From a virus (Duplodnaviria; Heunggongvirae; Uroviricota; Caudoviricetes), in the IMG/VR virus record IMGVR_UViG_3300017560_000307: 64,000 nucleotides of DNA. One strand, given 5' to 3'. Under the pieces are notes generated by a model. It saw nothing but the letters and a program-made list of their open reading frames with translations, was not told the origin of the DNA and did no database searches. Made by a program: the position numbers and the translations under genes. This document shows, one piece after another, positions 28,486 to 61,698 of this stretch (within the stretch, counting starts at the first letter, position 1; each line of letters starts with the position of its first letter).

Positions 28486-28491
28486 CCATGT

Positions 28492-28564: not shown

Positions 28565-28571
28565 CCAATAT

Positions 28572-28643: not shown

Positions 28644-28650
28644 CCAGTGA

Positions 28651-28722: not shown

Positions 28723-28728
28723 CCATAT

Positions 28729-28800: not shown

Positions 28801-28806
28801 CCATTT

Positions 28807-28878
28807 GCGATCATAGCTCAGTGGTAGAGCGCAGCCTTGTCACGGCTGAGGCCGGCGGATCGTTCCCGCCTGGTCGCG
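28807..28878 (+). tRNA. tRNA-Asp: tRNA-Asp (GTC)
   Basis: D-arm AGCTCAGTGGTAGAGC, anticodon CAGCC-TTGTCAC-GGCTG, T-arm GGCGG-ATCGTTC-CCGCC, CCA encoded. Confidence 0.65.
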
Positions 28879-29187
28879 CCAGTTTGGATTGGTTGACTTG
28901 TAAAGCAATATGTGTTCAAATCTTAGCCCCTGAACCAAGTCTTGGATTGGTGCTCCACAGATTTATGCCCCTCATGGGATATGTCGCACGCCCTTTGGTA
29001 ACGTCCACTCAAACATCCCATCATCAAGACATCTTTCCATCTTCCTGTCTTCCTGTCTTTCCATCTAAACATCAAAACGTTTTGCCTCCCATACATCTTG
29101 TCGTCAGTAATGCTTGCCATCCAGCAGGCAAAACAGCCTCCCTTTCCTTCCGATCCTCCGCCCCGCCCTATGTCTTTTTGACACATC

Positions 29188-33344: not shown

Positions 33345-33615
33345 GACACATCCAGATGTCTTGATGTCTACATTCTAACCAGTATTGACATCATGAAATC
33401 TTACCGTCTTACCATCTCACCATCATAGACTCTTAACTTCTAACTGGCTTTAGGGTTAACCATTCTTATGTTTAACCACTAAAACTTGCCAACATATTCC
33501 CATTCAGACATCCCGATGTGTGGCCATTCATATGGCTAGACATCTGGATGGAAAAACATTTGGATGTCTGGCAAACTGTACGTACAAGACATGTTGACAT
33601 CGAGACATCTCGACG
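33345..33615. promoter_or_regulatory. cluster of at least 6 ACATC-n2-GATGT operator-like inverted repeats (candidate parS/operator region)
   Basis: GACACATCCAGATGTCTTGATGTCTAC, CAGACATCCCGATGTG, CTAGACATCTGGATGG, TTGGATGTCTGG, AAGACATGTTGACATCGAGACATCTCGAC. Lies between the RHH gene and parA. Confidence 0.5.
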
Positions 33616-43330: not shown

Positions 43331-43704
43331 TGTGTTGTGGGCGAGCGGGTGGGCGCTCGTACCAGTGGCGGAAGTGCATAAGCGATACGGCCGAGAGGCT
43401 AGAACGGGGGTCTATGCAGCGAGTAAATACAGGGTTCAGAGATAAGACTGGGACTGAGGTCTTTACCGGTGACGTGCTTGAGTTTTCGATTACATGGATA
43501 AACGGCGACGGCTACCGTCATGTTCATCAAGTGGTGGAACAAGGTGAAGATTTCAGGCTTGATACAGGCTATCGAGTTGAGTTTAGAGCGGGAAACAGCG
43601 ACAGGATTACGAGAGAAAACGGTCGTTCACTGAGGTCAATGCGTATGGAGTATGGGCGAGTGATTGGGACGGCTCAAGACAATCCAGAGCTGTTGACGGC
43701 TTGA
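43330..43704 (+). CDS. hypothetical protein (likely start ATG about 43408 after leader motif copy E)
   Basis: MQRVNTGFRDKTG…. Confidence 0.45.
   Translation: MCCGRAGGRSYQWRKCISDTAERLERGSMQRVNTGFRDKTGTEVFTGDVLEFSITWINGDGYRHVHQVVEQGEDFRLDTGYRVEFRAGNSDRITRENGRSLRSMRMEYGRVIGTAQDNPELLTA
43375..43407 (+). promoter_or_regulatory. conserved leader motif copy E (partial)
   Basis: GATACGGCCGAGAGGCTAGAACGGGGG, nearly identical to the 3-prime part of copy A. Confidence 0.35.
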
Positions 43705-43705
43705 G

Positions 43706-43760
43706 AGGAGGAGAGAGACAGCCATAAGGCACATACCCATATGGGTAGAAACGGAGGCGC
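43706..43760 (+). promoter_or_regulatory. conserved leader motif copy B
   Basis: GAGAGAGACAGCCATAAGGCACATACCCATATGGGTAGAAACGGAGGCGC then ATG. Confidence 0.45.
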
Positions 43761-44150
43761 ATGCAATTCAGTAAGGACGAACTAGAAACCATCCTGAATG
43801 CTCTCAAATACACATACGAGGGCATAGACGGGGACATGGGCGCAATGGGCGACAAGGAGGCTAATGCCGAGCTTGGGAAGCTTGACTGGCTTATCAAGAA
43901 TATCGAGGCCGGCGATGAATCTATTCCCGACTTCAGTGGATTATTTGAGCAGAACCCAGCGACATTTATTACATGGCTGATGGAGGAATTCCGTAGCGGA
44001 GATGAGAGCTGGCAGCACCATTTATCTGAAGACGACCGCCTTGAGCTGTTCGTCTCTATGCCAACAGGGGCCAGCGACCTCACTTATAAGCTGTTCCAAG
44101 AGGTCTGCGACAACTATGGGGAGAGTCTGACTGACGTACTGAATCGGTAG
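43761..44150 (+). CDS. hypothetical acidic protein
   Basis: 129 aa. Confidence 0.45.
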   Translation: MQFSKDELETILNALKYTYEGIDGDMGAMGDKEANAELGKLDWLIKNIEAGDESIPDFSGLFEQNPATFITWLMEEFRSGDESWQHHLSEDDRLELFVSMPTGASDLTYKLFQEVCDNYGESLTDVLNR

Positions 44151-44152
44151 AG

Positions 44153-44209
44153 CAGGAGAGGAGAGAGATAGGAAAAGCCATATGCCCTCAGGGGCAGAAA
44201 CGGAGTTGC
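44153..44209 (+). promoter_or_regulatory. conserved leader motif copy C
   Basis: GAGAGAGATAGGAAAAGCCATATGCCCTCAGGGGCAGAAACGGAGTTGC then ATG. Confidence 0.45.
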
Positions 44210-44536
44210 ATGAAACATTACCTAGCAGACTTCATTTGCCAGGACGGAGCCCACCAGCATAGCTACCAAGCTCTTATCCGGGCCTATGACATGGAGCAAG
44301 CCAAAACCATTGCCCAGTCCCACGAATACGACTGTGGTGATGATGACGGCCATGACTGGGACTACAGTGACAACCTTCCTCTTACGGCCTTTGGAGACGG
44401 ATTGACAGCCTGCCGGCTACGAGATGTCTCCGAGATAGATGTTACCGCCTATGATGCCTTGAAAGCGCTGGGCGTGGTCACAGAGATTGACCTGGTTGTG
44501 AGAGTCGCCATTCCAGAAAAACATACGAATGTCTAG
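44210..44536 (+). CDS. hypothetical protein
   Basis: 108 aa. Confidence 0.45.
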   Translation: MKHYLADFICQDGAHQHSYQALIRAYDMEQAKTIAQSHEYDCGDDDGHDWDYSDNLPLTAFGDGLTACRLRDVSEIDVTAYDALKALGVVTEIDLVVRVAIPEKHTNV

Positions 44537-44563
44537 GTGTTTAGATTTTTAGATGTCTGGATG
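44526..44563. promoter_or_regulatory. operator-like ACATC/GATGT repeats
   Basis: GAATGTCTAGGTGTTTAGATTTTTAGATGTCTGGATGG. Confidence 0.4.
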
Positions 44564-44564
44564 G

Positions 44565-44626
44565 GTAAGGAGGAGGGGAGAGCGGTTCAAAAGAGATATG
44601 CCTGAATTGGGCAGAAATGGAGATGA
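44565..44626 (+). promoter_or_regulatory. conserved leader motif copy D
   Basis: GGGGAGAGCGG…GATATGCCTGAATTGGGCAGAAATGGAG then ATG. Confidence 0.4.
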
Positions 44627-44932
44627 ATGTTATTTGACACCAGTAAATTGAGTCCGATGAGTCGGGGACGGGTGGAGAAACATCTGAAGGGGCTTATCAG
44701 GTATCAGGGCACCGTCATGACGAATCAGAATATGTATTCACTCTTCTTAGCCGTTGCCAAGTGTCACAGTGTTAATACAGAAGAGATAGATATTCTTTCC
44801 TACGGTCTCAGCACAGGACGGACGGAAACCAAAGAGACACACTTCTATAATCTTGTCTCCGAGGATGGCTTCCTCCTAGAGATTCCTAAGATGCTCTATG
44901 ACGTTTGCACACTATCCGAAGAGTCAGCATAG
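44627..44932 (+). CDS. hypothetical protein
   Basis: 101 aa. Confidence 0.45.
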   Translation: MLFDTSKLSPMSRGRVEKHLKGLIRYQGTVMTNQNMYSLFLAVAKCHSVNTEEIDILSYGLSTGRTETKETHFYNLVSEDGFLLEIPKMLYDVCTLSEESA

Positions 44933-44991
44933 AACGAAAGCCTCCCGACCCGTACCCACGGCGACGGAGGCTTTCACAGTAAAGGGGGATT

Positions 44992-45339
44992 ATGCACGGA
45001 ACAATCAACGTTGCGGCCATCATGGCCAAGCACCAGGCTACAGCACCACTAGCCCCACCCACCACCCCACGAGATGCAGAACACCGCCAGGACTGGCTTG
45101 ATCGCCTGCATATGGGCAGCTTGCAAATGGCCTACGCGCAATATGGCGCTGCCGAAACCGACGAAGCAAAAGATGAAGTCAGGAAACTATGGGGAGAGAT
45201 CCTCACCGAGGCTCTTGAGCGGCGGGGAAGGCACTACAAATGGTTGAAGAAGGTGTATCTGCCTAGAGTGAGGGCGTGGCAGACACGGATGGAGACGAAG
45301 GCGAGGGCGGAAGCAGCAGGTGATGAATTTGTGTATTGA
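44992..45339 (+). CDS. hypothetical protein
   Basis: 115 aa. Confidence 0.45.
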   Translation: MHGTINVAAIMAKHQATAPLAPPTTPRDAEHRQDWLDRLHMGSLQMAYAQYGAAETDEAKDEVRKLWGEILTEALERRGRHYKWLKKVYLPRVRAWQTRMETKARAEAAGDEFVY

Positions 45340-45345
45340 CATAAT

Positions 45346-45375
45346 AATATAATAGTAATAATATAGATGTATAAC
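45346..45375 (+). promoter_or_regulatory. sigma70-type promoter TTGACA-N18-TATAAC
   Basis: GTGTATTGACATAATAATATAATAGTAATAATATAGATGTATAACC. Confidence 0.4.
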
Positions 45376-45394
45376 CAATAAGGGGGATAATTAC

Positions 45395-45589
45395 ATGGCA
45401 GCAAATGAGGCACAACGCATCAGAAATACCAGGGCGCATCAGCTGGCCTGGGTCGCCCAAACAGCCCTGGAGAAGCTGCAGGCGCTCACCGGTAACGACT
45501 ACGTCGACACGGTCAATAAGATGGAAGACATTCTCCAGCAGACCCAGAACGCACCTATGGTGCGCAAGGTTAGAGTGGGGGAAGCATGA
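45395..45589 (+). CDS. hypothetical small protein
   Basis: 64 aa. Confidence 0.4.
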   Translation: MAANEAQRIRNTRAHQLAWVAQTALEKLQALTGNDYVDTVNKMEDILQQTQNAPMVRKVRVGEA

Positions 45590-45987
45590 ATCACGCCTCC
45601 CTAGAGCTAGGTGAAGAGCTGTTTTACTTGAGCGGATGGGATCCTGGACACGAATTAGTGATTATTACGAACTCCAGAAATGCCTCTGATTGCGGAGTCA
45701 GGAAGCCTATCCACTTCAATAAAATTGGCTATGGCACCATGGGTTGCATCACATACAGCCCGGCCTATGACCTAGGATATTTGTTGAGGAAGTTGCCAGT
45801 GCTCATATTGGGAAACCAGAGCCTACAGATAATTCCTTTTGACGATGGATCTTGGGTATTGGAGTACAACAATTTAGATGGTTCCCCTTGTGGTATCGGA
45901 AGTGAAGCAATGGCTCCGGAAGACGCCGCATGCAAGCTCGCCATCAAGCTATTCAAGCAAGGAATCATCACCAAGGAGACTTTATGA
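45586..45987 (+). CDS. hypothetical protein
   Basis: 133 aa. ATGA overlap with neighbours. Confidence 0.45.
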   Translation: MNHASLELGEELFYLSGWDPGHELVIITNSRNASDCGVRKPIHFNKIGYGTMGCITYSPAYDLGYLLRKLPVLILGNQSLQIIPFDDGSWVLEYNNLDGSPCGIGSEAMAPEDAACKLAIKLFKQGIITKETL

Positions 45988-46304
45988 ACATCCCCAACGT
46001 CTCCGCCAAGAAGTTCTACGAGCAGCGCCAGGCCGAAGTCGACCGTAGCAACGAGGCGTTGCGCAACCGAAAGCCCAAGACGCCAGAGGAGCTCGCAGCG
46101 CTTCGCCAGAAGATCCAGGAGCACAAAGACCAGCCACGAGAGTTTGTGGTGGAGCGCGTCGACAAGCCCTATCTTTCCGATATCTTCAAGGGCCGCTGGG
46201 TGGTGACCGTCGTCGAGAGTGATGGGTTGATCGTTCGGCCAGCAGATAAGCTGTTCAGTACGGAGGAAGAGGCAAACGCCTATTACAAGGACATTGCGGC
46301 CTAG
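45930..46304 (+). CDS. hypothetical protein (likely start ATG about 45984, ATGA-coupled)
   Basis: MNIPNVSAKKFYEQRQ…. Confidence 0.45.
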   Translation: MQARHQAIQARNHHQGDFMNIPNVSAKKFYEQRQAEVDRSNEALRNRKPKTPEELAALRQKIQEHKDQPREFVVERVDKPYLSDIFKGRWVVTVVESDGLIVRPADKLFSTEEEANAYYKDIAA

Positions 46305-46321
46305 CCGCAGAATGGAGGACA

Positions 46322-46690
46322 GTGAAAGAAGTATTGATAAGTAAAGAAGATATGCGCGACATTCTTGTATCGGCTCTCAGGGATAGGCTGACGAACGAAT
46401 ATAGCAGCCCTGCAAGAGAAGTCGTGAATAAAGTAATGGCTGAAGTATCCCCAGAGTTTGAGGCAGTTCTGAAGGACGTTCTCAAGGAGGTGGTGCTTGA
46501 TGATGAGTTCAAGAATCAACTAAGGATTGAGTTCAGGCATAAGGTTGCCAAGCTGCTTGTCGGTGAGCTATCTGGCTCAGTAGATAAAGCAGTCAACTCA
46601 TTCAGGCAAGACCCACGTCTCAAGGCCCAAATGATACAGGCTATCGACTCGATAATAAGTCCAGTCGAGTCGGATACGCAGGACTCCTAA
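46322..46690 (+). CDS. hypothetical protein (GTG start after GGAGG)
   Basis: 122 aa. Confidence 0.45.
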   Translation: MKEVLISKEDMRDILVSALRDRLTNEYSSPAREVVNKVMAEVSPEFEAVLKDVLKEVVLDDEFKNQLRIEFRHKVAKLLVGELSGSVDKAVNSFRQDPRLKAQMIQAIDSIISPVESDTQDS

Positions 46691-46778
46691 GCCGGTAAGC
46701 AAACGGAAGCGTAGGCAGCGTCATCCGCTGCCTGGGGTTGATCGATTGTCGGTCGACCACAGCTAGAAGGGTGATGCA

Positions 46779-47015
46779 GTGAAAGAGACCAGAGAGGACA
46801 TTGTAGCCAAACTCGAAGAACGTAGGCAGCGGCTTGCAGACATGCAGGAGCGTGGTGTTGAGTCCTTGAGTCACTATGACAGGGAGATCGCTTTCGGTGG
46901 AGACGACCAGCTTGCTTTGGTGACTTCCATGCAGTTGATACGCAATCACATTGCTTACCACACCCGCCAGTTGGCGGAGATGGATGAGAAGCCGCAACAG
47001 CCTTCACTGTTCTAA
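46779..47015 (+). CDS. hypothetical small protein (GTG start)
   Basis: 78 aa. A hairpin GGCAGCG-tcatc-CGCTGCC lies upstream at about 46713-46731. Confidence 0.4.
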   Translation: MKETREDIVAKLEERRQRLADMQERGVESLSHYDREIAFGGDDQLALVTSMQLIRNHIAYHTRQLAEMDEKPQQPSLF

Positions 47016-47292
47016 TCCGATGCTACTATTAGAAGGAGGCGTGACCTCGAAAGGATGGCACTACATGGCAACAACACGAAAAGTAACCCTCCTTATCGAT
47101 AGCGAAATCGACGATGAGCTGACTGAACTCGCCCACTTAACAGGTCGTGACAAGCAGAGTCTTGCTCAGGAAGCCTTGCTTGAATGGCTAGAGGACCAGG
47201 AAGACATCAGGGATGCTCAGGCGATCCTCGCCGAAGGCAACCAGAGGATTCCGTTCGAGGAGGTCAAGAGAGAGCTTGGTTTGGCGAGTTGA
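46951..47292 (+). CDS. RelB/ParD-type (RHH) antitoxin; likely start ATG about 47065
   Basis: KVTLLIDSEIDDELTELAHLTGRDKQSLAQEALLEWL…RIPFEEVKRELGL is a characteristic antitoxin C-terminus. Confidence 0.55.
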   Translation: MLTTPASWRRWMRSRNSLHCSNPMLLLEGGVTSKGWHYMATTRKVTLLIDSEIDDELTELAHLTGRDKQSLAQEALLEWLEDQEDIRDAQAILAEGNQRIPFEEVKRELGLAS

Positions 47293-47539
47293 ATTTGAAC
47301 CGGCAGCCCGGAAGGCGCTGCGCAAGATCGATCGCACCTGGCAAGAAAGAATCATCAAATATCTCGAAGAGGTTAGTAGCCTTGAGAACCCGCGAGTGCG
47401 AGGAAAGGCCCTAACAGCAGACTTTTTAGGTCTTTGGCGCTACCGCGTCGGTGACTACCGGATTATCTGCGAGTTCGAGAATGACGTACTGATTATTGCC
47501 GTGATCAAGATTGCTCATCGCCGACAAGTCTATAAGTAG
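47213..47539 (+). CDS. RelE/ParE-family toxin; likely TTG start at about 47276 (87 aa) overlapping the antitoxin stop
   Basis: VWRVEFEPAARKALRKI…GDYRIICEFENDVLIIAVIKIAHRRQVY matches the RelE/ParE fold signature. Confidence 0.6.
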   Translation: MLRRSSPKATRGFRSRRSRESLVWRVEFEPAARKALRKIDRTWQERIIKYLEEVSSLENPRVRGKALTADFLGLWRYRVGDYRIICEFENDVLIIAVIKIAHRRQVYK

Positions 47540-47596
47540 GCTCACAGCCCCACCTCTTGGTGGGGTTTTCTTCTGTCCAGGGCCTAAATTGATGTA

Positions 47597-47625
47597 TTGA
47601 CATAGTATTGCATTAGGCGTATAAG
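47597..47625 (+). promoter_or_regulatory. sigma70-type promoter, family copy (TTGACA-N17-TATAAG)
   Basis: GTATTGACATAGTATTGCATTAGGCGTATAAGTAATGTAT. Confidence 0.55.
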
Positions 47626-47639
47626 TAATGTATAGCACA

Positions 47640-48472
47640 TGAACAAGCAAATACGTCATCAATCCGACCCAGGGGTACATTCACAGGGATGGCGAGTGTG
47701 AGCTTTGGATTCTTTGTAACGATTGGTAGGGAGAATCTATAGGGCGGCTAGATCGAGTTCCAATCTGAGGGAGTTCCAACCTACAGGCAGATGGAAATGA
47801 AACGAAATTGCCTGGATCAATAATGTCCACCTAGGTTCGAATCCTAGAGTCCCTGGGTTGGTTTGATGATGACAGTCATGAATCTAAGTGAGGGGTGGTG
47901 CAAAGCAGATAGACACGCCGCAACTCATGCCGGCTCGAGCCGGCGAGGTCAAGCTTCGGCCGCGGTGCTGGGGACGGAGATCCAGTAATGCAGGTGACTT
48001 TACGAGTTGCAATAGCGTACCTCTCAGCGTATGTGCGTAAATGGCATCTCGGCAACTCCTGCCCCCTCACTGAGATTCATGACAAATGATCGAGATTGTC
48101 CCCTCAGCTTCGGCTGGGGTATCGATTTAACCTCTCAACCTTCGTTGGAAGCAGCAAAATACCCAATATGCTGGCGTCGGCGTCTTCGGCGTCGGTTTTA
48201 AACTTCCTGCGATGAGTTGAGGGGATAGTCTCGATTCTTCCCAGAAGGACAGGCCTTTAGGTGTGGGTTTTTGCTAATTTTTCTCACATCTCCTGTTCTT
48301 CTGAGACGGATTGAGCCTCGATCGTTGATCGAAGAGGCTGGCTTTTGGCGAAGGGGTCTTATCCATGCTCCAAGCGTCCCAGCTCTTCGATGAGCGATTG
48401 AAGGTTTCGTGAGCAAGAGGAGACCTCCGGCCATTGCTCCCCCAGCTGGGCCAGGAGGTCTCCGTTTTCTTG
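47640..48472 (+). ncRNA. candidate large structured non-coding RNA (about 830 nt) between promoter and terminator
   Basis: No ORF over 60 aa on the sense strand. Many GC-rich hairpins with CTTCGG tetraloops, and a tRNA-like T-arm CTAGG-TTCGAAT-CCTAG at about 47838-47858. Bounded by the promoter at 47597 and a strong terminator at 48419-48472. Confidence 0.3.
48419..48472 (+). terminator. intrinsic terminator
   Basis: 10-bp perfect stem GGAGACCTCC…GGAGGTCTCC with an inner palindrome CCCAGCTGGG, followed by GTTTTCTTG. Confidence 0.5.
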
Positions 48473-48659
48473 CGAGACTCGGAGAGGAGACAAGAATCTC
48501 CGGGCGTTGTTTGAACCATGCGGTTCGTGTCCGTTGATCCGGCAGGGTCTCGTGGAGAGACGTGAGGGAGGGTGGCTACTTGGCTGCTCTCCCTCTAATT
48601 CTGATGAAAGGATATACGGCGTTCTAACGTCACCCTTCGCCTAGAGCTAGTCATCGGGA

Positions 48660-48983
48660 TTGGTTCTAATACGGAGGGTGATAATGGGCATTTTGGAGAC
48701 AATTGCCAAACAGGAAGTAAAGCGTTGGTTGAGTCCATACGCACTCAGGGGTGATACGGTCGAGTACACAGCGTCGGGCATCATGAGTATCGGATCACTT
48801 CACCTCAGTGCCAACGTCGGCAACTATGCCTGGTTCAACGGAGAGAGTGTCAAGCTCAAGAGTCGGCAGGTAGCTGTGACAATGGTGGGTGGCGTACCCT
48901 GCCTGTATATCTTCTCGCTGGAAAAGCTGTTCGAAGAGATCTTGCATCCCGAAATAGAAGTGAGCCAACCTGGATTATTTTGA
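48660..48983 (+). CDS. hypothetical protein
   Basis: 107 aa with SD GGAGGGTG. Confidence 0.4.
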   Translation: MVLIRRVIMGILETIAKQEVKRWLSPYALRGDTVEYTASGIMSIGSLHLSANVGNYAWFNGESVKLKSRQVAVTMVGGVPCLYIFSLEKLFEEILHPEIEVSQPGLF

Positions 48984-55068: not shown

Positions 55069-55905
55069 GTGAACAGGCGCGAGCGTGGCGATCAGCTACA
55101 GGAGCAGCTTTCCGAGGCTATCACTGAGCTGGAACAACAGCTCAATGAAGGCCATACCGAGGGGTTTTTACGCCTCTTAGAATTTTATAGTCGGTTCCGC
55201 AAGTACTCCCCAGGTAACGTCATGTTGATCCTGATGCAGCGACCTGATGCATCATTGTGTGCTGGTTTCAGGCAGTGGGAGAAGCTCGGCTACCAGGTGC
55301 GAAAAGGTGAGTCTGCTGTATGGGTTCGGGGTCCGTACTTCAAGGATGTCACGGATCCAGAGACTGGAGAGGTTGAGAACCGTCTGATTGGCTGGCTTGC
55401 CTTGCCAATCTTTGATGTGTCTCAGCTCGAAGGCGATGTAGAGATTCCGTCGTTTACCCATCCACTGGAGGGTGACTACGATGGTCTGTACACCATGGCC
55501 CGGGTAGGAATCGGTGTCCAGGGAGTCCTGGTCATTGAGGATGACCTGCCCTCAACTATTCATGGTATGGCTTCAGGCGACAAAATCACTATCAACAGGA
55601 ATCTGTCTGACAGTGAGAAGTTCCTTTGCCTCCTCCATGAAGCGGCCCATATCGTACTCAAGCATTCAGAGCGGCATGAGGAGACCTCCAAGCAACAGAG
55701 AGAGTTGTGCGCGGAAGCCACAAGTTACCTGCTTGCCAAACTCTTCGGCCTCGATAACCCCTTCAGCAGGGATTACATCATTGCCTACAACGGAACCGTC
55801 GAAGCTCTGCATGAGAGCCTGAGTGAGATTCACCTGGCTGTGCGGAAGATATCCGGCTGGCTGGAGATTGAAGCTCCATCACAGGAGCAATCAATCGCCG
55901 CCTAG
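55069..55905 (+). CDS. ArdC-like antirestriction protein (N-terminal ssDNA-binding domain + C-terminal HExxH metalloprotease)
   Basis: YSPGNVMLI is an ArdC-N-like motif. LHEAAHIVLKH is a zinc-protease motif. Confidence 0.55.
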   Translation: MNRRERGDQLQEQLSEAITELEQQLNEGHTEGFLRLLEFYSRFRKYSPGNVMLILMQRPDASLCAGFRQWEKLGYQVRKGESAVWVRGPYFKDVTDPETGEVENRLIGWLALPIFDVSQLEGDVEIPSFTHPLEGDYDGLYTMARVGIGVQGVLVIEDDLPSTIHGMASGDKITINRNLSDSEKFLCLLHEAAHIVLKHSERHEETSKQQRELCAEATSYLLAKLFGLDNPFSRDYIIAYNGTVEALHESLSEIHLAVRKISGWLEIEAPSQEQSIAA

Positions 55906-56242
55906 TCATCGGGAGCGGGTCAACCACTCGCTCCCTTCTTTTACCAAGTTCATCAGATTGGCTGGTGAGCTTAGTGAAAGGAAGCAGGAGATGACTGCAG
56001 AGGAGCGACAGAATCTCGTCGACCGTTTGAAAGCCGGAGAGCGAGTGTTCTTTGGCTACAACCAGGAACTTACCCCGGAACTGGCGGCACGTTTGCTCGA
56101 CCAGATTGGTAAGTCCTCTGGAGAGACACTATCCAGGGCCCAGGTGATTAGTCATTCTGGTGCTGGTGTGTTGGTCTGGATTGAGGCGTATTCCGGTAAT
56201 CCGATTGATCAGGGCTTTCTGCGCCGATCGAAGCGGAGGTGA
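55823..56242 (+). CDS. hypothetical protein (likely start ATG about 55991, 83 aa)
   Basis: SD GGAAGCAGGAG. The upstream portion overlaps the ArdC-like gene. Confidence 0.35.
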   Translation: MRFTWLCGRYPAGWRLKLHHRSNQSPPSHRERVNHSLPSFTKFIRLAGELSERKQEMTAEERQNLVDRLKAGERVFFGYNQELTPELAARLLDQIGKSSGETLSRAQVISHSGAGVLVWIEAYSGNPIDQGFLRRSKRR

Positions 56243-56722: not shown

Positions 56723-56798
56723 TAAGGTATGGAACAAACAATACGACTAGATTGCAGGAAGTGTCACCGGTGGTGGGAATGGCCCATCAATCGATTCT

Positions 56799-57032
56799 GT
56801 GACCAATGTAAGCATTGCGGGGAACGGAACTGGAGTTGTCCGGAGGAGGGGAATGAAAATCACGATTGGGGGCAACAACGAATCAATGAGCCACACTATT
56901 AGTGACGGAGCGACTGTCGCTAAAGTGCTTCAGGTTTTCGTCGGTCTACTCATCGCCTATGGCTTTCATCCAAGCAGAATCAATCAGTATTTTGTGGACG
57001 AAGAGTCGCCACTGGAGTGGAACACGGAGTAG
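56799..57032 (+). CDS. hypothetical small protein
   Basis: 77 aa with weak RBS. May be part of a longer non-coding transcript. Confidence 0.3.
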   Translation: MTNVSIAGNGTGVVRRRGMKITIGGNNESMSHTISDGATVAKVLQVFVGLLIAYGFHPSRINQYFVDEESPLEWNTE

Positions 57033-57049
57033 TCAGTCTCTTGCGCTGT

Positions 57050-58180
57050 GTTTGTTCGGACTCCACCAAGCCGGCAAGCACAGCGGAGGGGATTGAAGCC
57101 AGAGAGCTTCCACAGTCATCACGGCACAGTGTTAGGTCTGTTGTGTGTTTTGGTACGAGATGGTCGTACTCCGTGGGGTTGTTGCCTAAGACGTAAAAAC
57201 TCCCTGCCGTCAAAACGGCACCTCTCCGACGAGATTTTCCATGTCTGTGTCGGGCTTGCCTAGAACCCTTGATCGGGGAAGCGGACATGATGAGCCAGCA
57301 ACCTGCCTTCATGGCGGGGATGTGGCGGATTAGCTTCGGCGGCTGCCTACTGGTTCGCTGGTTGGACTCTGGAGGGGATAGTGCTCACCTTCGTCAAAGG
57401 GTGTTGGGCCGTCCGGACGCCTCTCCAGATTCGAGCCAGGTAACTCAAGAAAACCCACCTCATATGCGCGTGTGCAGAGGGTAAAACAGACTTCGGAGGT
57501 CTGGGGGAGGAACCGCGGAAGCGATCGACACACGCTCGAAACATCCTGGCCCGAATTTTGAAAGATGGAGTGAGAGTTGTCGCTAGACAACACTCCGGTG
57601 AGGCGGTTCGCTACCGCCATCGCAACCGGTGGGCGTTCTGGTGAGCACCTAGGGCAACAAGCCGAGGAGCTAAGTCCCTCGGGGCAATTCCTCTCCATCT
57701 TTCAGTGTTTGAACGTTCTCGCCAACCTCAAAAAGTGAACCGAGCGACCGGGGTGTCTCCCGATCACTCAGTCGTCCGGTGGTTTATTCCACCAGGCGAC
57801 TTGAGACACCAGGTTCGGGGTTGGCGAGAGGGCCCAGAATCCTAGCCAACTGCTTGATATAATGCATACAGCCATGCAGTACCCGGCCAGCGTTTTGAAA
57901 CACAATCGCTTCAAGCCAGACAAGAGCTTCCGAGTACTGCCGGGAGCTCTTTTTTGTTCCCAGGCCGACCGCAATCAGCAGTACCGGTGAACACAGCAAT
58001 GTCTGATGGATGCGGGATCTAAGGGTAGGTCCATAGGCAAAAACGGTTTGAACTTTCGCTCCCCTGAGCATGTGCCTGCCGCTGGATGTCCCCTGGTTGT
58101 ACCAGGTCGACAGACCAGCCTCTGCTTTGGGGCGTGAGAGCTTAATCCCTCTCTAATCGTCCCTTCACAACCTCATATTC
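57050..58180 (+). ncRNA. ORF-free, hairpin-rich region (candidate structured RNA or cis-element), internal terminator at 57924-57956
   Basis: Only short ORFs that conflict with each other. CTTCGG tetraloop hairpins, a tRNA T-arm-like GGCGG-TTCGCTA-CCGCC at about 57596-57612, and a terminator AGAGCT-n15-AGCTCT-TTTTTT. Confidence 0.2.
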
Positions 58181-58232
58181 TATGATGTCTAGATGTTTAG
58201 ATGTCAAGATGTTTAAGCTTCTAGATGTCTAA
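58181..58232. promoter_or_regulatory. dense array of AGATGT/ACATCT operator-like repeats
   Basis: ATGTCTAGATGTTTAGATGTCAAGATGTTTAAGCTTCTAGATGTCTAAACATCC, directly upstream of the gene at 58253. Confidence 0.5.
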
Positions 58233-58252
58233 ACATCCAGGAGGGTTTTGCC

Positions 58253-58495
58253 ATGCCTGCGAAAGACTCAAGTTTTACGTTCGTTGGGTTCGGTAAGGAT
58301 CGCTACGGCTTTCGCTGTTCGATTCTGGAAGACCCTCAGACTGGCCAACGCTCTATCACCTATGACATGAACACCTGGTGGGAGCGAAGTCTATTCCTCA
58401 AACACCTGGAGTCCCTCGGTCTGGCCAGTGACACCAGCGAATCCGCGGAGTCTATCACTCCGCTTCCTGAATCGAGAGCAAACCTCCCTCACTAA
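58253..58495 (+). CDS. hypothetical protein
   Basis: 80 aa. Confidence 0.4.
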   Translation: MPAKDSSFTFVGFGKDRYGFRCSILEDPQTGQRSITYDMNTWWERSLFLKHLESLGLASDTSESAESITPLPESRANLPH

Positions 58496-58634
58496 ACCGG
58501 ATGGACGACCGCCAAGGTCGATGCGCCCGGTAGGGGCGAGGAAAAGCTTTAGCTGTCGGTGGTGACCAGTCTGATGCCAATACCGCGCGGTTGGCTGACT
58601 GAACTACTGAATAGTGCCTGGCTAAAGGGTAACT

Positions 58635-58949
58635 GTGTGGCGGATCGCCCCGGTTGCCCTTTCTCCATACCAGAAAGGAGACGCTGACATGTACGAGCAG
58701 GCTATTCAGCAACTGAAGGCCCGCCGCCCGGTCATGTTGGATCTCAAGGAGGGAGTCACTCCTTCTCAGGCTTTTGAAGTCGCTGACGCGATTGAAAAGG
58801 CACTCGGCATGACGCTGGAACGTCGAATGGTGGTAACCGCCGCTCGACACGCATTGGTGTTGTGGGCAGCCGGGCTTTGTCCCGACCCCTTCGCCAACTC
58901 GCTGTTAGGAGACAGGATCCATGCAAGACGAGATCATCCAGCAGCTTAG
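58635..58949 (+). CDS. hypothetical protein (likely start ATG about 58689)
   Basis: SD AAAGGAGACG. Confidence 0.4.
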   Translation: MWRIAPVALSPYQKGDADMYEQAIQQLKARRPVMLDLKEGVTPSQAFEVADAIEKALGMTLERRMVVTAARHALVLWAAGLCPDPFANSLLGDRIHARRDHPAA

Positions 58950-59340
58950 ACAACATCTCACTGAGATGACGTTGCTGGTCGATACCCTGGAATTCGTAGG
59001 TGATGACACACCTTCAGATTCACCACCAGACGAGCCGACTCCACCACCTGCACCTGTAGTTGGTAAAGGAGAGATTTCGCTCACTGGTGTTGTAGGCCGA
59101 CCAAGATTCCAGCAACCAAGAGGCAGGAGCCTTTGGACCGCTGGTCTTCGAGTTGGTCAAGGAGCTGATGCGGTATGGCACAACATCCAAGCGTGGGGAT
59201 CACCGGCAGAGCTTGCCCGAGACCTCGTGCGTCGCGGAGAGACAATCACCGTCGTCGGCAAGGAGAAGGACAACAGCTACGTGAACGCGGACGGCGTGAT
59301 GGTCGAACAGACCGTCGTTGTCGTCAGTCACTTCGCTTAG
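58921..59340 (+). CDS. SSB-like OB-fold single-stranded DNA-binding protein
   Basis: ISLTGVVGRPRF…WHNIQAWGSPAELARDLVRRGETITVVGKEK resembles an SSB OB-fold, preceded by an acidic Pro-rich N-terminus. Confidence 0.45.
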   Translation: MQDEIIQQLRQHLTEMTLLVDTLEFVGDDTPSDSPPDEPTPPPAPVVGKGEISLTGVVGRPRFQQPRGRSLWTAGLRVGQGADAVWHNIQAWGSPAELARDLVRRGETITVVGKEKDNSYVNADGVMVEQTVVVVSHFA

Positions 59341-59678
59341 GCAATACGTGCTTCTTCTGCGGAAGGTCTGTGCGTAAGGGCAAAAACACCTCCAAGCATC
59401 ACATTATGCCCAAGAGGTATGGAAGAGAGACCATCCTGCACCTGGCGTGCAACACATGTCATCAACGATGGCATCGAGAGATCGACAATCCACAGCTGGA
59501 CTTCATCTACTACGCGGTAGTGATGATTCTGGTCAACTGGGGTCGGGGAATTTACTCCCCGGCCCTTTTTCTTTGGATGAGTGTGCGAATATCTCACCTA
59601 TTGACAACGATACATAATAGATGTATAAGTAAGATGTACATACAAAAATACATAGAATGCTTGGGCAGTGAGAGGTAA
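59175..59678 (+). CDS. HNH endonuclease-like protein (C-terminal 100 aa); start uncertain, ORF overlaps the SSB-like gene
   Basis: CFFCGRSV…HHIMPKRYGRETILHLACNTCHQRWH. Confidence 0.4.
   Translation: MAQHPSVGITGRACPRPRASRRDNHRRRQGEGQQLRERGRRDGRTDRRCRQSLRLGNTCFFCGRSVRKGKNTSKHHIMPKRYGRETILHLACNTCHQRWHREIDNPQLDFIYYAVVMILVNWGRGIYSPALFLWMSVRISHLLTTIHNRCISKMYIQKYIECLGSER
59601..59629 (+). promoter_or_regulatory. sigma70-type promoter, family copy (TTGACA-N17-TATAAG) driving the tRNA-like array and Ro60 operon
   Basis: CTATTGACAACGATACATAATAGATGTATAAGTAAGATGTAC. Confidence 0.55.
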
Positions 59679-60190
59679 GGGTTACTTCGCTGATCTTTGG
59701 TGATCAACAACACTTGAAATGTTGCCTATACTGGTTCGATTCCAGTCGATGTCCGCAAGGATGTTTCCACCCTCCTCACCTTCCTCCCAGGCATTTGAAA
59801 ACACTTCACTCAGGTAGTGAGGGGTAGGGTTACTTCGGATGTTAACCGAGAGGTCGCAGGTTCGAGTCCTGTCTGGACGAAAGTTCAGTAGCTCAGTTGG
59901 TTAGAGCGCTTTTACACTCTCCCCACCTTTCTCCTGAGTGTTTGAAATCACAGCCCAGCGGGCAGTGAGAGATTGGGTTACTTCGCTTTTAACGACGTTG
60001 TCGTTGGTTCGAATCCAACTGGGGCCACCTAGGGCCCCATAGCTCAGTGGTAGAGCACGTACATTTCCCACCTCGGTTTTCTCCCGCTGGACTGATATTC
60101 GGTGACTACCCTTCATCTTCGGATGAGGCGACTTAATACCTCTCAACTTTCTCCCAAGGAGTTGAGGGGTAGCTATCGAATACCCACTAA
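59660..60190 (+). ncRNA. array of four tRNA-like / Y-RNA-like modules (candidate YrlA-type Ro60-binding RNAs)
   Basis: Units at about 59660-59760, 59790-59880, 59881-60030 and 60031-60190. Each carries a box GTGAGRGGTWGGGTTACTTCG (three exact GGGTTACTTCG copies), a TTTGAAAHCAC element, and a T-arm-like GGTTCGA(A/T/G)TCC. Units 3 and 4 start with canonical tRNA acceptor plus D-arm (AGCTCAGTTGGTTAGAGC, AGCTCAGTGGTAGAGC) but lack an anticodon arm and a matching 3-prime acceptor. Confidence 0.45.
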
Positions 60191-60216
60191 TCACTATTAC
60201 CTTTCGTAGGAGGCAC

Positions 60217-61698
60217 ATGTCACGTTTCAATTCCACAACAGTCGGCACCCGCACCACAAATTTTGCAGGCGGTCGCGCATACAAGGAGGATGCGAAGCTT
60301 GAAATAGCCTCCATTCTTCTGAATTCATTTGTCACAGACCAATACTACCGATCAGCTGACAACACTATGAGGCGTCTCGTCGAATTGATTGAAACCCTGC
60401 CGGATAAGCGCTTCGCTGCTCAGGCTGCTCTCTTCGCCCGAACCAAGTACAATCTGCGCTCGATTAGCCACGTGGCCGCCGGTGAGGTTGCCCGACTGGT
60501 CAAGGGTGAGCAATGGACCAAGCGATTCTTCGCCGCAGTTGTCCAGCGCCCTGATGACGCCACAGAGATCCTTTCCTACTACACAACCAAATACGGCAAG
60601 CCGATTCCGAACTCTCTAAAGAAGGGATTGGCAGCTGGTTTGACCAAGTTTGACGGCTACCAGCTGGCTAAATACCGGGGTGAAGACAAAACGTTGTCGC
60701 TCATTGACCTGGTTAACATCACCCACCCGGTTCCGTCAGCCAAGAATACTGAGGCGCTCAAACAACTCATTGAGGGCACACTAAAGAACACCGACACCTG
60801 GGAAGCCAAACTGACTGAGGCTGGAAAGTCGGCCGAGTCCGATGAGGACAAGGCGGATCTGAAGGCTGAGGCCTGGGCTGAACTGATTACCAACCGCAAG
60901 CTCGGTTACATGGCTACATTGCGTAACCTAAGGAATTTGGTTGAACAGGTAAAAGACGAGAGCGTCATCAAGCAGGCGCTAGAAACCCTGGCCGACCCAA
61001 ACCAGGTTCGTCGCTCCCGTGTCCTGCCATTCCGCTTCTACACCGCGTATCAGCAGATGAGTCAGGTCTCCGGCGCCAATAAGGTCTTGAAGGCCCTGTC
61101 CACCGCACTCGACCATTCCGTCGGAAATCTGCCCGAGATGCCAGGAAAGACGTTGGTTGTGATCGATCACTCCGGCTCAATGGACAGCCGTATGAGTGGC
61201 AACTCCCAGGCAACGATGTTCCAGACTGGAGCCCTGCTGGGTGTGTCCCTGGCTAAGTCTCAGGACGCCGATCTGATTTACTTTGGTGACACTGCCCGCT
61301 ATTTCACCTTCAACCCGGCCGACAGCATCTTGAGCATCATGATGGCTCTTGAGGAGGCCAATCGCTGGGGCGGTGCTACAAGCGTTGGCCACGGCACCAA
61401 CTTTGAAGCTGCCTTCAATACGGCGACCAAAGCATACGACCGCATCGTTATCTTCTCTGATATGCAGGGTTGGATGGGCTATCGCACACCAACCACAGCC
61501 TTCAACGCGTATAAGAAGCGCACCGGGGCAAACCCAACAGTCTTCTCAGTCGACCTGGCCGGCTACGGCACACTGCAATTCCCTGAGGATCGCGTATTCT
61601 GCCTGGCAGGGTTCAGTGAAAAGACGCTGGAGTTATTACCCAAGCTCGAAGTTGACAAGAACGCGCTGGTTCATGAGATTGAGGAGGTGGAGGTATGA
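60217..61698 (+). CDS. rsr: Ro60-related protein (TROVE domain + C-terminal vWA/MIDAS), Rsr ortholog
   Basis: The N-terminus FAGGRAYKEDAKLE…KRFAAQAALFARTKYNLRSISHVAAGEV aligns with the Ro60 TROVE pattern. C-terminal MIDAS motif VVIDHSGSMDS…IVIFSDMQG. SD GTAGGAGG. Confidence 0.75.
   Translation: MSRFNSTTVGTRTTNFAGGRAYKEDAKLEIASILLNSFVTDQYYRSADNTMRRLVELIETLPDKRFAAQAALFARTKYNLRSISHVAAGEVARLVKGEQWTKRFFAAVVQRPDDATEILSYYTTKYGKPIPNSLKKGLAAGLTKFDGYQLAKYRGEDKTLSLIDLVNITHPVPSAKNTEALKQLIEGTLKNTDTWEAKLTEAGKSAESDEDKADLKAEAWAELITNRKLGYMATLRNLRNLVEQVKDESVIKQALETLADPNQVRRSRVLPFRFYTAYQQMSQVSGANKVLKALSTALDHSVGNLPEMPGKTLVVIDHSGSMDSRMSGNSQATMFQTGALLGVSLAKSQDADLIYFGDTARYFTFNPADSILSIMMALEEANRWGGATSVGHGTNFEAAFNTATKAYDRIVIFSDMQGWMGYRTPTTAFNAYKKRTGANPTVFSVDLAGYGTLQFPEDRVFCLAGFSEKTLELLPKLEVDKNALVHEIEEVEV

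What the first reader, a model, noticed from the sequence alone, without database searches (positions are those of the whole stretch)
47597..48660. About 1 kb ORF-free, promoter-to-terminator unit with dense secondary structure and a tRNA T-arm mimic
A family promoter (47597-47625) is followed by about 830 nt lacking any sense ORF over 60 aa and then a strong terminator (10-bp stem plus U-tract, 48419-48472). The interior has many GC stems capped by CTTCGG or TTCG loops, palindromes and a perfect T-arm CTAGG-TTCGAAT-CCTAG with an acceptor-like 3-prime side. Large ornate RNAs (GOLLD/ROOL-type) are known to sit next to tRNA or structured-RNA loci in phages. This could be such an RNA, or a novel one, possibly functionally linked to the Ro60 module.
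Basis: seen in the sequence. Interest (0 to 1): 0.6.

Follow-up and report, generated by a model that had tools for sequence, protein, structure and literature searches.

The report
Phage non-coding RNA with tRNA-mimic modules
This gene-free kilobase of a phage genome is a promoter-to-terminator unit for a heavily folded non-coding RNA, part of which belongs to a so far unannotated phage family of RNAs derived from leucine tRNA that have lost the anticodon arm.

Summary
A promoter of a real phage promoter family (47597-47625) is followed by about 1,050 nt with no coding signal. This is the most strongly folded stretch of the 64-kb window, and it contains a terminator at 48403-48479. It matches no Rfam family: not GOLLD, ROOL, tmRNA, an intron, HEARO or YrlA. 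The RNA is a chain of long-stem domains. Two partial strain variants (L118, L119) show wobble-compatible substitutions, which point to RNA-level selection on the + strand. The closing helices and the 3' part are conserved, while the interiors of the first two domains are swapped for unrelated sequence. The swapped-in D1 module of L118 carries an exact tRNA-Leu D-arm. Using that D-arm as a probe recovered about 30 IMG/VR elements. They share a covarying closing helix, a Leu-type D-arm, a variable insert in place of the anticodon arm, and a 6-bp T-stem with loop UGCAAAU. A covariance model built only from those elements hits the window at 47984-48069 (35.5 bits, E about 1e-7). It finds nothing in 0.83 Mb of control loci. 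Function is inferred: a multi-module precursor of tRNA-mimic RNAs, which may also act as a leader for the downstream operon. No link to the Ro60 module was found.

The parts
47546..47567 (+). Terminator hairpin of the upstream ParDE cassette. It marks the left boundary of the unit.
   Evidence: The cassette 47046-47579 is about 80% identical to a Thermomicrobiales MAG chromosome, and the homology stops at 47579.
47597..47625 (+). Family promoter: -35 TTGACA at 47597-47602 and -10 TATAAG at 47620-47625. The transcription start is inferred at about 47632.
   Evidence: It is conserved in strain L118.
47654..47871 (+). Domain D1. The closing helix is 47654-47675/47850-47871 (9+12 bp). The interior is multi-branched and is replaced by unrelated sequence in another strain.
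   Evidence: I4; z -4.1.
47832..47848 (+). Canonical tRNA-type T-arm (CUAGG-UUCGAAU-CCUAG) placed just before the 3' strand of the D1 closing helix.
47875..48083 (+). Domain D2, a member of the tRNA-Leu-derived family. The closing helix P1 is 47875-47895/48063-48083. A diverged D-arm-like segment lies at 47896-47919. The 5' interior (47897-47989) varies between strains.
   Evidence: I1; z -4.3.
47984..48069 (+). Conserved 3' module of D2. It comprises AAUG; the T-stem 47990-94/48058-62; a split T-loop (UG at 47995-96 and CAACU at 48053-57); and an inserted hairpin closed by CGAG 48003-06 / CUCG 48048-51.
   Evidence: Model R1, built only from IMG/VR elements, scores 35.5 bits with E 1.6e-7 over the full model length. 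Alignment.
48088..48236 (+). Domain D3. It has a 23-bp closing helix with 5 G-U pairs (48088-48110/48214-48236). This helix competes with a local CCCCUCAGC-UUCG-GCUGGGG hairpin. D3 is 97.5% conserved in L118.
   Evidence: (I3).
48242..48303 (+). Domain D4, a long hairpin of 12+9 bp.
   Evidence: pair probabilities 0.99-1.00.
48313..48405 (+). Domain D5, a long hairpin (48318-36/48383-401 and extensions).
   Evidence: (I6).
48403..48479 (+). Intrinsic terminator. The core stem is 48419-28/48454-63 and the tail GUUUUCUUG begins at 48464.
   Evidence: (I2). The tail matches the phage's other terminators.
48480..48683 (+). Structured stretch after the terminator. It contains a 14-bp hairpin at 48564-48595 and a hairpin that pairs the Shine-Dalgarno sequence of the 99-aa gene (48672-82) with 48629-39.
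   Evidence: Strain L119 has three adjacent pair-preserving substitutions in 48584-86.

Best explanation
The interval is a dedicated transcription unit of a siphophage (with plasmid-type ParA and relaxase-like genes) that probably infects Thermomicrobiales. Its product is a non-coding RNA of about 0.85 kb, read on the + strand from the family promoter to the terminator at about 48470.

The RNA is modular. Five domains lie back to back, each closed by a long helix of 19-23 bp.

Shown: there is no coding signal. Folding is exceptional and favours the + strand. Substitutions between strains toggle Watson-Crick and G-U pairs. The closing helices and the 3' part are conserved, while the interiors of D1 and of the 5' half of D2 are exchanged between strains. 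D2 is a member of a covarying family of tRNA-Leu-derived RNAs, and so is D1 of the other strain. The family has a closing helix, a Leu-type D-arm, a variable insert where the anticodon arm would be, and a 6-bp T-stem with loop UGCAAAU that sometimes carries an inserted hairpin. Members occur in about 30 unrelated IMG/VR phage contigs, and Rfam 15 does not annotate them.

Inferred: the primary transcript is a multi-module precursor. The long closing helices act as processing stems, of the RNase III type that brackets rRNAs, and release stable tRNA-shaped RNAs. These RNAs have a tRNA elbow but no anticodon and no CCA end. They would act in trans as mimics, either decoys or tethers, for a factor that recognises tRNA shape, while displaying a fast-evolving insert. 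Transcripts that read through the terminator also supply the only visible promoter for the downstream 99-aa/DnaJ-like operon, whose ribosome-binding site is sequestered.
For: Promoter family and terminator-promoter junctions.

No coding: and the empty gene calls in 16 and 17.

Structure: z -9.7 on + against -6.7 on -. It is the top GC-corrected window of the 64 kb. Four of 13 long inverted repeats lie here. 365 pairs are predicted, 58 of them G-U.

Strain comparison (L118, L119): 12 of 16 substituted pairs stay paired. There are 11 WC/G-U toggles against 2 WC/C-A toggles. An A.G mismatch in the D2 stem becomes A-U. The D1 inner helix differs in sequence but still pairs. The 3' part is 97.5% identical, while the swapped interiors are about 60% identical (unrelated). 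All four D1/D2 versions fold with z between -3.1 and -5.8.

Family: 59 loci were recovered with the D-arm 21-mer, about 30 of which are not tRNAs. Across 27 distinct sequences, 91% of cells pair against 37-45% for slid controls. 13 of 19 pairs change on both sides. The covariation score is 0.607 against 0.177 for shuffles, reached by 0 of 500.

Membership of D2: model R1 scores 35.5 bits with E 1.6e-7 at 47984-48069, and gives 0 hits in 826 kb of controls.

No Rfam match on member loci.

No family promoter lies between 48479 and 48684. The SD pairing has probability 0.98.
Against: No expression data exist, so the start site, termination and processing are all inferred. The helices were not tested as RNase III sites.

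Only two partial strain variants are available. The wobble-toggle statistic (binomial about 0.01) rests on an MFE predicted from one sequence.

D3, D4 and D5 have no relatives outside this lineage.

Window D1 carries only a T-arm and a weak D-arm-like stretch, so its family membership is not shown.

The family was ascertained through one exact D-arm 21-mer, so its true breadth and D-arm variability are unknown. One row of the covariation alignment (L118 D1) was assembled by hand across a 180-nt insert.

Family members have no shared neighbouring gene, which gives no functional handle. The decoy or tether role is a guess.

Relatives of the flanking 99-aa gene lack the element altogether, so it is dispensable.
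Confidence: 0.55

Rival explanations
1. The whole kilobase is a cis-acting 5' leader of the 99-aa/DnaJ-like operon. The terminator at 48403-48479 is an attenuator that is read through only under some condition, or with a phage antiterminator as at lambda pR'-tR'. The SD-sequestering hairpin adds translational control. The tRNA-like modules would be sensors or protein-binding sites.
For: No family promoter or good sigma-70 match lies between the terminator and the ATG at 48684. The next promoter is at 50230, and a terminator follows the DnaJ-like gene at 49624. The SD is paired with probability 0.98. The hairpin at 48564-95, downstream of the terminator, shows three pair-preserving substitutions, so RNA is made there on the + strand. 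A local UUCG hairpin competes with the D3 closing helix.
Against: In relatives the 99-aa gene follows a YopX gene after about 60 nt, with no leader, so the genes do not need it. A leader of 1,050 nt with five long-stem domains, two of which are swappable, is far beyond known attenuators. Family members in other phages sit next to unrelated genes. This reading is not exclusive of the main explanation.
Confidence: 0.22
2. It is one large ornate RNA of a new class that works like GOLLD or ROOL: a single folded particle, possibly multimeric, with a variable 5' region carrying tRNA-like parts and a conserved 3' region.
For: The size is about 0.85 kb and it is phage-encoded with its own promoter and terminator. 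The 5' half varies and the 3' half is conserved between strains. GOLLD is described the same way, with tRNAs sometimes in its linker (PMC12286853).
Against: There is no Rfam match to GOLLD, ROOL, OLE, raiA or any other family at E<=10. The architecture is a string of independent domains closed by helices of 19-23 bp, not many short helices joined by conserved junctions and pseudoknots. It is 18.7 kb from the tRNA array. The 3' domains have no relatives outside the lineage, so no conserved core can be shown.
Confidence: 0.1
3. It is a DNA-level or decaying element with no RNA function. Candidates are remnants of tRNA genes, MITE-like insertions bounded by inverted repeats, an attP-type tRNA fragment, or single-strand DNA hairpins of a plasmid-like leading region.
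For: Family elements occur in unrelated contexts and are bracketed by inverted repeats. Modules are exchanged between strains. The window carries ParA, Replic_Relax and ArdC genes. tRNA-derived pieces are present.
Against: Substitutions favour G-U over C-A by 11 to 2, and the + strand folds 68 kcal/mol better than the - strand. That argues for RNA on the + strand, not for DNA hairpins or the template strand. The closing helices of family members covary rather than keeping a common terminal sequence, as transposase-bound ends would. A derived T-loop, UGCAAAU, is invariant in 27 distinct elements, which decay would not give. GGTTCGAATCCTAGAGTCCC occurs in none of 185,579 species genomes, so it is not a copy of a known tRNA 3' end. 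The unit has its own promoter and terminator.
Confidence: 0.08
4. The region encodes one or more small proteins missed by ORF length cut-offs.
For: ORFs of 41-56 aa on the + strand and 64-81 aa on the - strand exist.
Against: Codon-usage scores are near zero or negative in all six frames. No Shine-Dalgarno sequence precedes the + strand ATGs (read directly). The largest open frame has no homolog. The strain variant replaces about 270 nt with unrelated sequence of a different length.
Confidence: 0.02

Closest known systems
YrlA-type bacterial and phage Y RNAs (Rfam RF02553)
   Same: Both are non-coding RNAs of bacteria and phages that copy the tRNA elbow (D-arm plus T-arm) without an anticodon, on a long helix. 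This same phage carries real YrlA-like modules next to its Ro60 gene.
   Different: There is no YrlA model match in the region. The arm order is tRNA-like (5' helix strand, D-arm, insert, T-arm, 3' helix strand), not the permuted T-arm / acceptor hairpin / D-arm order of YrlA. The D-arm is of the tRNA-Leu type. The T-loop is UGCAAAU. The unit lies 11.7 kb from Ro60, whereas YrlA is found within 4 kb (PMC4201824).
GOLLD and ROOL large phage RNAs (RF01998, RF03087)
   Same: All are large phage-encoded structured RNAs of unknown function. GOLLD also has a variable 5' region, a conserved 3' region and sometimes tRNAs inside it (PMC12286853).
   Different: There is no covariance-model match. The unit is not next to a tRNA island. 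It is modular with long closing helices rather than one intricate fold.
tRNA-Leu and the tRNA-like domain of tmRNA
   Same: The family keeps the acceptor-type helix, the exact Leu-type D-arm UGGCGGAAUAGGUAGACGC and a T-arm. As in tmRNA, a large insert replaces the anticodon arm.
   Different: ARAGORN and the Rfam tRNA and tmRNA models do not call the elements. There is no anticodon arm and usually no CCA. The closing helix is 9-21 bp. The T-stem is 6 bp and has G where tRNA has U55.
rRNA-operon and phage T7 RNase III processing stems
   Same: Structured RNAs are bracketed by long helices formed from their flanks and arranged head to tail in one transcript.
   Different: Cleavage here is only inferred from helix length. 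Nothing was tested.

Membership tests
Unnamed tRNA-Leu-derived, anticodon-less phage RNA family (defined here from IMG/VR loci L121-L179) | Closing helix (P1) formed by the two ends, which covaries between members | tested here: met
   In the family, 8 of 10 P1 pairs change on both sides. Window D2 has GUGAGGGG.../...CCCCUCAC extended to 21 bp (I1), and it is kept in L118 through wobble changes and one repaired mismatch.
Unnamed tRNA-Leu-derived, anticodon-less phage RNA family (defined here from IMG/VR loci L121-L179) | (C)AUG, then a 5-6 bp T-stem with loop UG..CAAAU, directly followed by the 3' strand of P1 | tested here: met
   Model R1, built from 7 IMG/VR members only, scores 35.5 bits with E 1.6e-7 at 47984-48069, and 36.2 bits in L118. 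It gives 0 hits in 826 kb of controls. The window has CAACU and L118 has CAAAU.
Unnamed tRNA-Leu-derived, anticodon-less phage RNA family (defined here from IMG/VR loci L121-L179) | Subtype B: a hairpin inserted in the T-loop, ACUAUACGAG...CUCGG | tested here: met
   The window has ACUUUACGAG...CUCGG. The closing pairs CGAG/CUCG covary with CAGG/CCUG and CCGU/GCGG in other members.
Unnamed tRNA-Leu-derived, anticodon-less phage RNA family (defined here from IMG/VR loci L121-L179) | Leu-type D-arm UGGCGGAAUAGGUAGACGC after the 5' strand of P1 | tested here: inconclusive
   The match is exact in L118 D1. L118 D2 has UGGCGGAAAGG. Window D2 has the diverged UGGUGCAAAGCAGAUAGACAC, and window D1 only AUGGCGAGUGUGAGC. 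The family was ascertained through this motif, so its natural variability is unknown.
GOLLD (RF01998) / ROOL (RF03087) | Match to the family covariance model | tested here: not met
   No hit at the gathering score in the window, at E<=10 in 47400-48800, or at E<=5 in L118.
GOLLD (RF01998) / ROOL (RF03087) | Location next to tRNA islands in phages or prophages | tested here: not met
   The tRNA array lies at 27865-28881, 18.7 kb away.
GOLLD (RF01998) / ROOL (RF03087) | Homo-oligomeric nanocage | not testable with these tools
   This needs cryo-EM of the transcript (PMC12286853).
YrlA / bacterial Y RNA (RF02553) | Covariance-model match with the order T-arm, acceptor hairpin, D-arm | tested here: not met
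   There is no YrlA hit in 47400-48800 at E<=10. The same search type finds two modules at 59849-59910 and 59995-60061 (E 7e-8 and 2e-7).
YrlA / bacterial Y RNA (RF02553) | Within 4 kb of the Ro60 gene on the same strand (PMC4201824) | tested here: not met
   It is on the same strand, but 11.7 kb upstream of Ro60 at 60217.
YrlA / bacterial Y RNA (RF02553) | GNCGAAN0-1G Ro60-binding motif near the 5' end | tested here: not met
   The only copy is at 48347, inside D5 and far from the 5' end. One copy is about what chance gives.
tRNA / tmRNA | Cloverleaf with an anticodon arm (tRNA), or a tRNA-like domain plus tag reading frame (tmRNA) | tested here: not met
   ARAGORN at default settings finds none. 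With introns allowed and a relaxed threshold it gives only one poor call at 47717-47856, and no tmRNA. Rfam finds none. Only the T-arm is canonical.
Group I/II introns, HEARO and other Rfam ribozymes or riboswitches | Covariance-model match | tested here: not met
Intrinsic terminator | GC-rich stem followed by a U-rich tail | tested here: met
   There is a 10-bp perfect stem (14 bp with one bulge) with pair probability 1.00 and the tail GUUUUCUUG. Termination itself was not tested.

The most novel reading that the evidence does not exclude
The unit is an 'operon' of a previously undescribed class of modular phage RNAs. Each is a tRNA-Leu-derived scaffold (closing helix, D-arm and T-arm elbow) with defined insertion sites that hold rapidly exchanged cargo domains. 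The modules are made as a multi-module precursor and released at long processing stems. They would serve as programmable decoys or tethers in phage-host conflict, for example against tRNA-targeting defences or tRNA-recognising enzymes.
Probability: 0.3. Interest if true: 0.8.

Novelty: new variant of a known kind. Interest (0 to 1): 0.66.

Why it matters
Phage tRNA mimics are known mainly from Y RNAs and tmRNA. This locus points to a second lineage, derived from tRNA-Leu, that is not annotated in Rfam 15. It has clear covariation, members in about 30 unrelated viral contigs, and defined sites where large inserts are tolerated.

The window shows these modules chained in one promoter-to-terminator unit, with their interiors swapped between near-identical strains. 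That is the signature of an arms-race or cargo-display function.

The locus offers a concrete, testable system for two questions: what tRNA-shaped decoys do during infection, and how large phage non-coding RNAs are built from modules. It also shows that a T-arm in a 'gene desert' can be used as a probe to recover a whole RNA family.

Tried and rejected
- Known RNA families. Rfam at the gathering score on the window, and at E<=10 on the region and on L118, gave only chance-level miRNA or leader hits. ARAGORN for tRNA, tmRNA and intron-containing tRNA found nothing credible.
- Similar DNA in annotated collections. blastn of the region and of the L118 variant against 50,697 phage records and 72,556 plasmids gave no match.
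- Synteny route. 17 IMG/VR relatives of the DnaJ-like gene, and four relatives of the 99-aa gene, have no such gap or sequence.
- Pattern scans of IMG/VR.
  - The T-arm 20-mer hit only ordinary tRNAs.
  - The D3 hairpin 20-mer gave chance hits.
  - A purine/pyrimidine-degenerate T-arm pattern gave 0.
  - The promoter pattern gave 0. An earlier promoter scan was wasted on a wrong spacer length.
  - The shared D1/D2 start motif gave 0.
- JGI metagenomes. The degenerate T-arm pattern gave 0. The promoter pattern gave 34 unrelated hits.
- Species genomes. T-arm plus 3' flank gave 0, which argues against an attP copy of a tRNA end. A conserved 20-mer gave one chance hit in a Heimdallarchaeota MAG.
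- ParE route. The closest ParE homologs are chromosomal Thermomicrobiales cassettes without the RNA.
- JGI strain variants. P0006 and P0129 could not be fetched.
- Second copy in the window. Only promoter similarity was found. The ORF-poor stretch 56.7-57.7 kb is only moderately structured (z -2.95) and lacks long inverted repeats.
- Shared neighbour gene of family members. None was found.
- Literature. Searches by topic and by sequence string found no name for the family.
Full report
**Context**

The window comes from a 124-kb metagenomic contig (ena:ERZ27256359:k141_834751). It carries siphovirus tail and lysis genes, an ERF recombinase, a DNA polymerase III alpha subunit, ParA, a Replic_Relax protein, ArdC-like proteins, a Ro60 (TROVE) protein and RNA ligases. 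It also carries a 13-gene tRNA array at 27.9-28.9 kb.

Immediately upstream of the finding lies a ParD/ParE toxin-antitoxin cassette. The cassette, including its terminator hairpin (47046-47579), is about 80% identical in DNA to chromosomal cassettes of Thermomicrobiales MAGs from the same study. The homology stops at 47579, just before the promoter. This suggests the host lineage and fixes the left boundary of the unit.

**Checking the observation**

The promoter is real. TTGACA-17-TATAAG at 47597-47625 is one of five + strand copies of a motif expected 0.06 times by chance. Four copies share the longer consensus TTGACATA-N12-GYGTATAAGKAA, and conservation extends past the -10 element. Three family promoters sit directly after a terminator hairpin, so they open new transcription units.

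Downstream there is no coding signal up to the ATG at 48684.
- The longest ORFs are 56 aa on the + strand and 81 aa on the - strand.
- Every open frame of 30 or more codons has a codon-usage log-odds of +2.4 or less, against +20 to +49 for six of seven neighbouring small genes.
- The largest open frame has no relative among 1.84 billion protein representatives.
- Public gene callers left the interval empty.

The terminator is a perfect 10-bp stem (14 bp with one bulge) with the tail GUUUUCUUG, the same tail type as the phage's other terminators.

The region folds exceptionally well.
- The 846-nt transcript has an MFE of -358.6 kcal/mol with z -9.7.
- It is the most structured stretch of the 64 kb on the + strand after correction for GC.
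- It holds 4 of the window's 13 long inverted repeats in 1.7% of the sequence.

The T-arm CUAGG-UUCGAAU-CCUAG is present at 47832-47848. The core GGTTCRANYCC occurs only seven times in the window, and the other six copies lie in tRNAs or in the Y-RNA-like cluster.

The enrichment in UUCG is real and strand-specific. In the predicted fold, however, most UUCG motifs are not hairpin loops.

**Which strand, and RNA or DNA**

The + strand folds 68 kcal/mol better than its complement (z -9.7 against -6.7). 58 of the 365 predicted pairs are G-U.

Two partial strain variants were recovered through members of the 90% protein clusters. L118 covers 47540-48289 and L119 covers 48550-48700.

In the alignable parts, 12 of 16 substituted pairs remain paired. 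Counting every change inside a helix, 11 toggle between Watson-Crick and G-U, and 2 create C-A. Without selection on + strand RNA these two outcomes should be equally likely (binomial about 0.01).

Three examples:
- Three adjacent substitutions in hairpin 48564-95 all keep pairing.
- An A.G mismatch in the D2 closing helix becomes A-U in L118.
- The inner part of the D1 closing helix differs at most positions in L118 yet still forms about 13 pairs.

This evidence is modest, because there are only two sequences and the structure is predicted. It is nonetheless consistent, and it argues against DNA hairpins and against the - strand.

**Anatomy**

From about 47633 the RNA is a chain of domains separated by 0-5 nt:
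- D1, 47654-47871, with a closing helix of 9+12 bp.
- D2, 47875-48083, closing helix of 21 bp.
- D3, 48088-48236, closing helix of 23 bp with five G-U pairs.
- D4, 48242-48303.
- D5, 48313-48405.
- The terminator, 48403-48479.

A further 200 structured nt follow. They include a hairpin that pairs the Shine-Dalgarno sequence of the 99-aa gene (probability 0.98). No promoter is visible between the terminator and that gene.

**Modular variation between strains**

Between the window and L118, the flanking genes are 91-99% identical. The promoter, the closing helices of D1 and D2, and everything from 47990 to 48289 are conserved (97.5%). The interior of D1 is different: 174 nt in the window against about 255 nt in L118. 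So is the 5' interior of D2. Both are replaced by unrelated sequence of about 60% identity, which is the level of random alignment. All four versions still fold significantly (z -3.1 to -5.8).

**The family**

The D1 interior of L118 begins GAGGGGA-UGGCGGAAUAGGUAGACGC, that is, an acceptor strand followed by the D-arm of bacterial tRNA-Leu. A scan of IMG/VR with that 21-mer gave 59 loci. About 19 are ordinary tRNA-Leu genes and one is a tRNA-Leu with a group I intron.

About 30 are something else. Each has, in order:
- a 7-14-nt 5' strand;
- the Leu D-arm;
- a variable 45-250-nt insert where the anticodon and variable arms would be;
- (C)AUG;
- a 6-bp stem with the invariant loop UGCAAAU;
- directly after that, the complement of the 5' strand.

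Some members (subtype B) carry a hairpin inserted inside the loop: UG-ACUAUACGAG...CUCGG-CAAAU.

I made an alignment of 27 distinct elements with the variable middle excised. On it, 91% of cells pair against 37-45% for slid registers. 13 of 19 pairs change on both sides: 8 of 10 in the closing helix and 5 of 6 in the T-stem. The covariation score is 0.607 against 0.177 for shuffles, reached by 0 of 500. The D-arm is invariant by ascertainment and says nothing either way.

Rfam 15 does not annotate these elements at the gathering score (16 loci) or at E<=1 (4 loci). ARAGORN does not call them. I found no name for them in the literature. A 2023 catalogue of 10,006 candidate viral RNAs may contain them without describing them (PMC10690425).

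**Membership of the window**

The conserved 3' half of D2 reads AAUGCAGG-UG-ACUUUACGAG...CUCGG-CAACU-CCUGC-CCCCUCAC, which is subtype B.

A covariance model built only from seven IMG/VR elements matches the window over its full length at 47984-48069, with 35.5 bits and a rough E of 1.6e-7. It matches L118 with 36.2 bits. These are the only strong hits. The model finds nothing at E<=0.01 in 826 kb of 84 unrelated loci.

The 5' side of D2 has the closing strand GUGAGGGG followed by a diverged D-arm, which is closer to the consensus in L118 (UGGCGGAAAGG).

Window D1 has a canonical T-arm in the family's T-arm position but only a weak D-arm-like stretch, so its membership is not shown. D3, D4 and D5 have no relatives outside the lineage.

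**Mechanism**

Shown: a promoter-to-terminator unit, non-coding, with RNA-level constraint on the + strand. It is modular. At least one module in each strain belongs to a covarying tRNA-Leu-derived family that keeps the tRNA elbow parts but has no anticodon arm and no CCA end.

Inferred: the long closing helices serve as processing stems, like those that bracket rRNAs or phage T7 mRNAs. The released modules are stable tRNA-shaped RNAs that act in trans as mimics and display a fast-changing insert. Transcripts that pass the terminator feed the downstream 99-aa/DnaJ-like operon under translational control.

I rate the composite explanation at 0.55. The 'non-coding structured RNA unit with family modules' part is much firmer than the 'processed decoy' part.

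**Rivals**

The main rival is that the whole stretch is a cis-acting leader or attenuator (0.22; compatible with the main reading). The others are a single GOLLD-like ornate particle (0.10), a DNA-level or decaying element (0.08) and small proteins (0.02).

**Comparison with known systems**

It works most like YrlA-type Y RNAs and the tRNA-like domain of tmRNA, in that it mimics the tRNA elbow on a helix without decoding. It is a member of neither.
- The YrlA model finds this phage's true Y-RNA-like modules at 59849-60061, next to Ro60, but finds nothing here.
- The order of the arms differs from YrlA.
- The unit is 11.7 kb from Ro60, whereas YrlA lies within 4 kb (PMC4201824).

It resembles GOLLD in size, in phage origin and in having a variable 5' region and a conserved 3' region with tRNA-related content (PMC12286853). 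It fails the model test and has a different architecture.

**Limits**

There are no expression data. Only two partial strain variants are available. E-values from the home-built model are rough. The family was found through one exact seed, so its extent is a lower bound. One alignment row (L118 D1) was assembled by hand across a large insert. The function is conjecture.

Noticed in passing
window 59601-61698: A family promoter at 59601 is followed by tRNA-like elements. ARAGORN calls odd tRNAs at 59663-59756 and 59806-59881. Two YrlA (Y RNA-like) tRNA-mimic modules lie at 59849-59910 and 59995-60061 (E 7e-8 and 2e-7, below the gathering score because only the tRNA-like part matches). All sit directly upstream of a Ro60/TROVE-vWA gene (60217-61698), with an RNA ligase gene at 62433-63707.
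   Followed up: partly
window 47046-47579: The ParD/ParE toxin-antitoxin cassette, with its terminator, is about 80% identical in DNA (the toxin 88% in protein) to chromosomal cassettes of Thermomicrobiales MAGs from the same study. It looks like a host-derived insertion and hints at the host.
   Followed up: partly
window 43400-48684 vs L023, L025, L026, L028: In four relatives the 99-aa gene directly follows a YopX gene. In this phage about 5 kb (some 11 small genes, ParDE and the RNA unit) lies between them, so this is a variable accessory block.
   Followed up: partly
window 55801-56000 and 23001-23200: These two 200-nt stretches have extreme folding z-scores on the + strand (-10.2 and -9.0). 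The first lies just after the ArdC-like gene and includes a terminator at 55911-55935.
   Followed up: no
window 56725-59175: This is a long ORF-poor, weakly coding stretch downstream of the family promoter at 56694. It is moderately structured (z -2.95 for 56726-57700) and lacks the long inverted repeats of the finding.
   Followed up: partly
window 24279-24346, 33505-33570, 58189-58240: Three long imperfect palindromes share an ACATCT/AGATGT motif. One lies just upstream of the ParA gene (33564). They may be operator or centromere-like protein-binding sites.
   Followed up: no
window 47929-47944: There is a perfect 16-nt palindrome, GCCGGCTCGAGCCGGC, inside the strain-variable part of D2. 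It is absent from strain L118.
   Followed up: no
L123, L124, L125, L150, L166, L174, L146: Several family-like elements carry extra canonical T-arm hairpins (GGUUCRAWUCC) inside their variable inserts. Three (L146, L167, L174) end in ACCA like real tRNAs, though the variable inserts of L146 and L174 were not resolved. The family may grade into aminoacylatable forms.
   Followed up: no
L133, L135, L147, L150: These IMG/VR loci contain two or three copies of the family's 3' motif, so tandem or clustered modules are not unique to the window.
   Followed up: no
L151 and L156: L151 is a tRNA-Leu(UAA) gene split by a group I intron of about 280 nt. In L156 the tRNA-Leu 5' part is followed by an ORF that resembles phage homing endonucleases (judged by eye only).
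   Followed up: no
window 1-3009 (- strand): Adjacent genes encode a protein kinase, a PP2C phosphatase and a vWA-domain protein, which is an unusual signalling trio for a phage.
   Followed up: no
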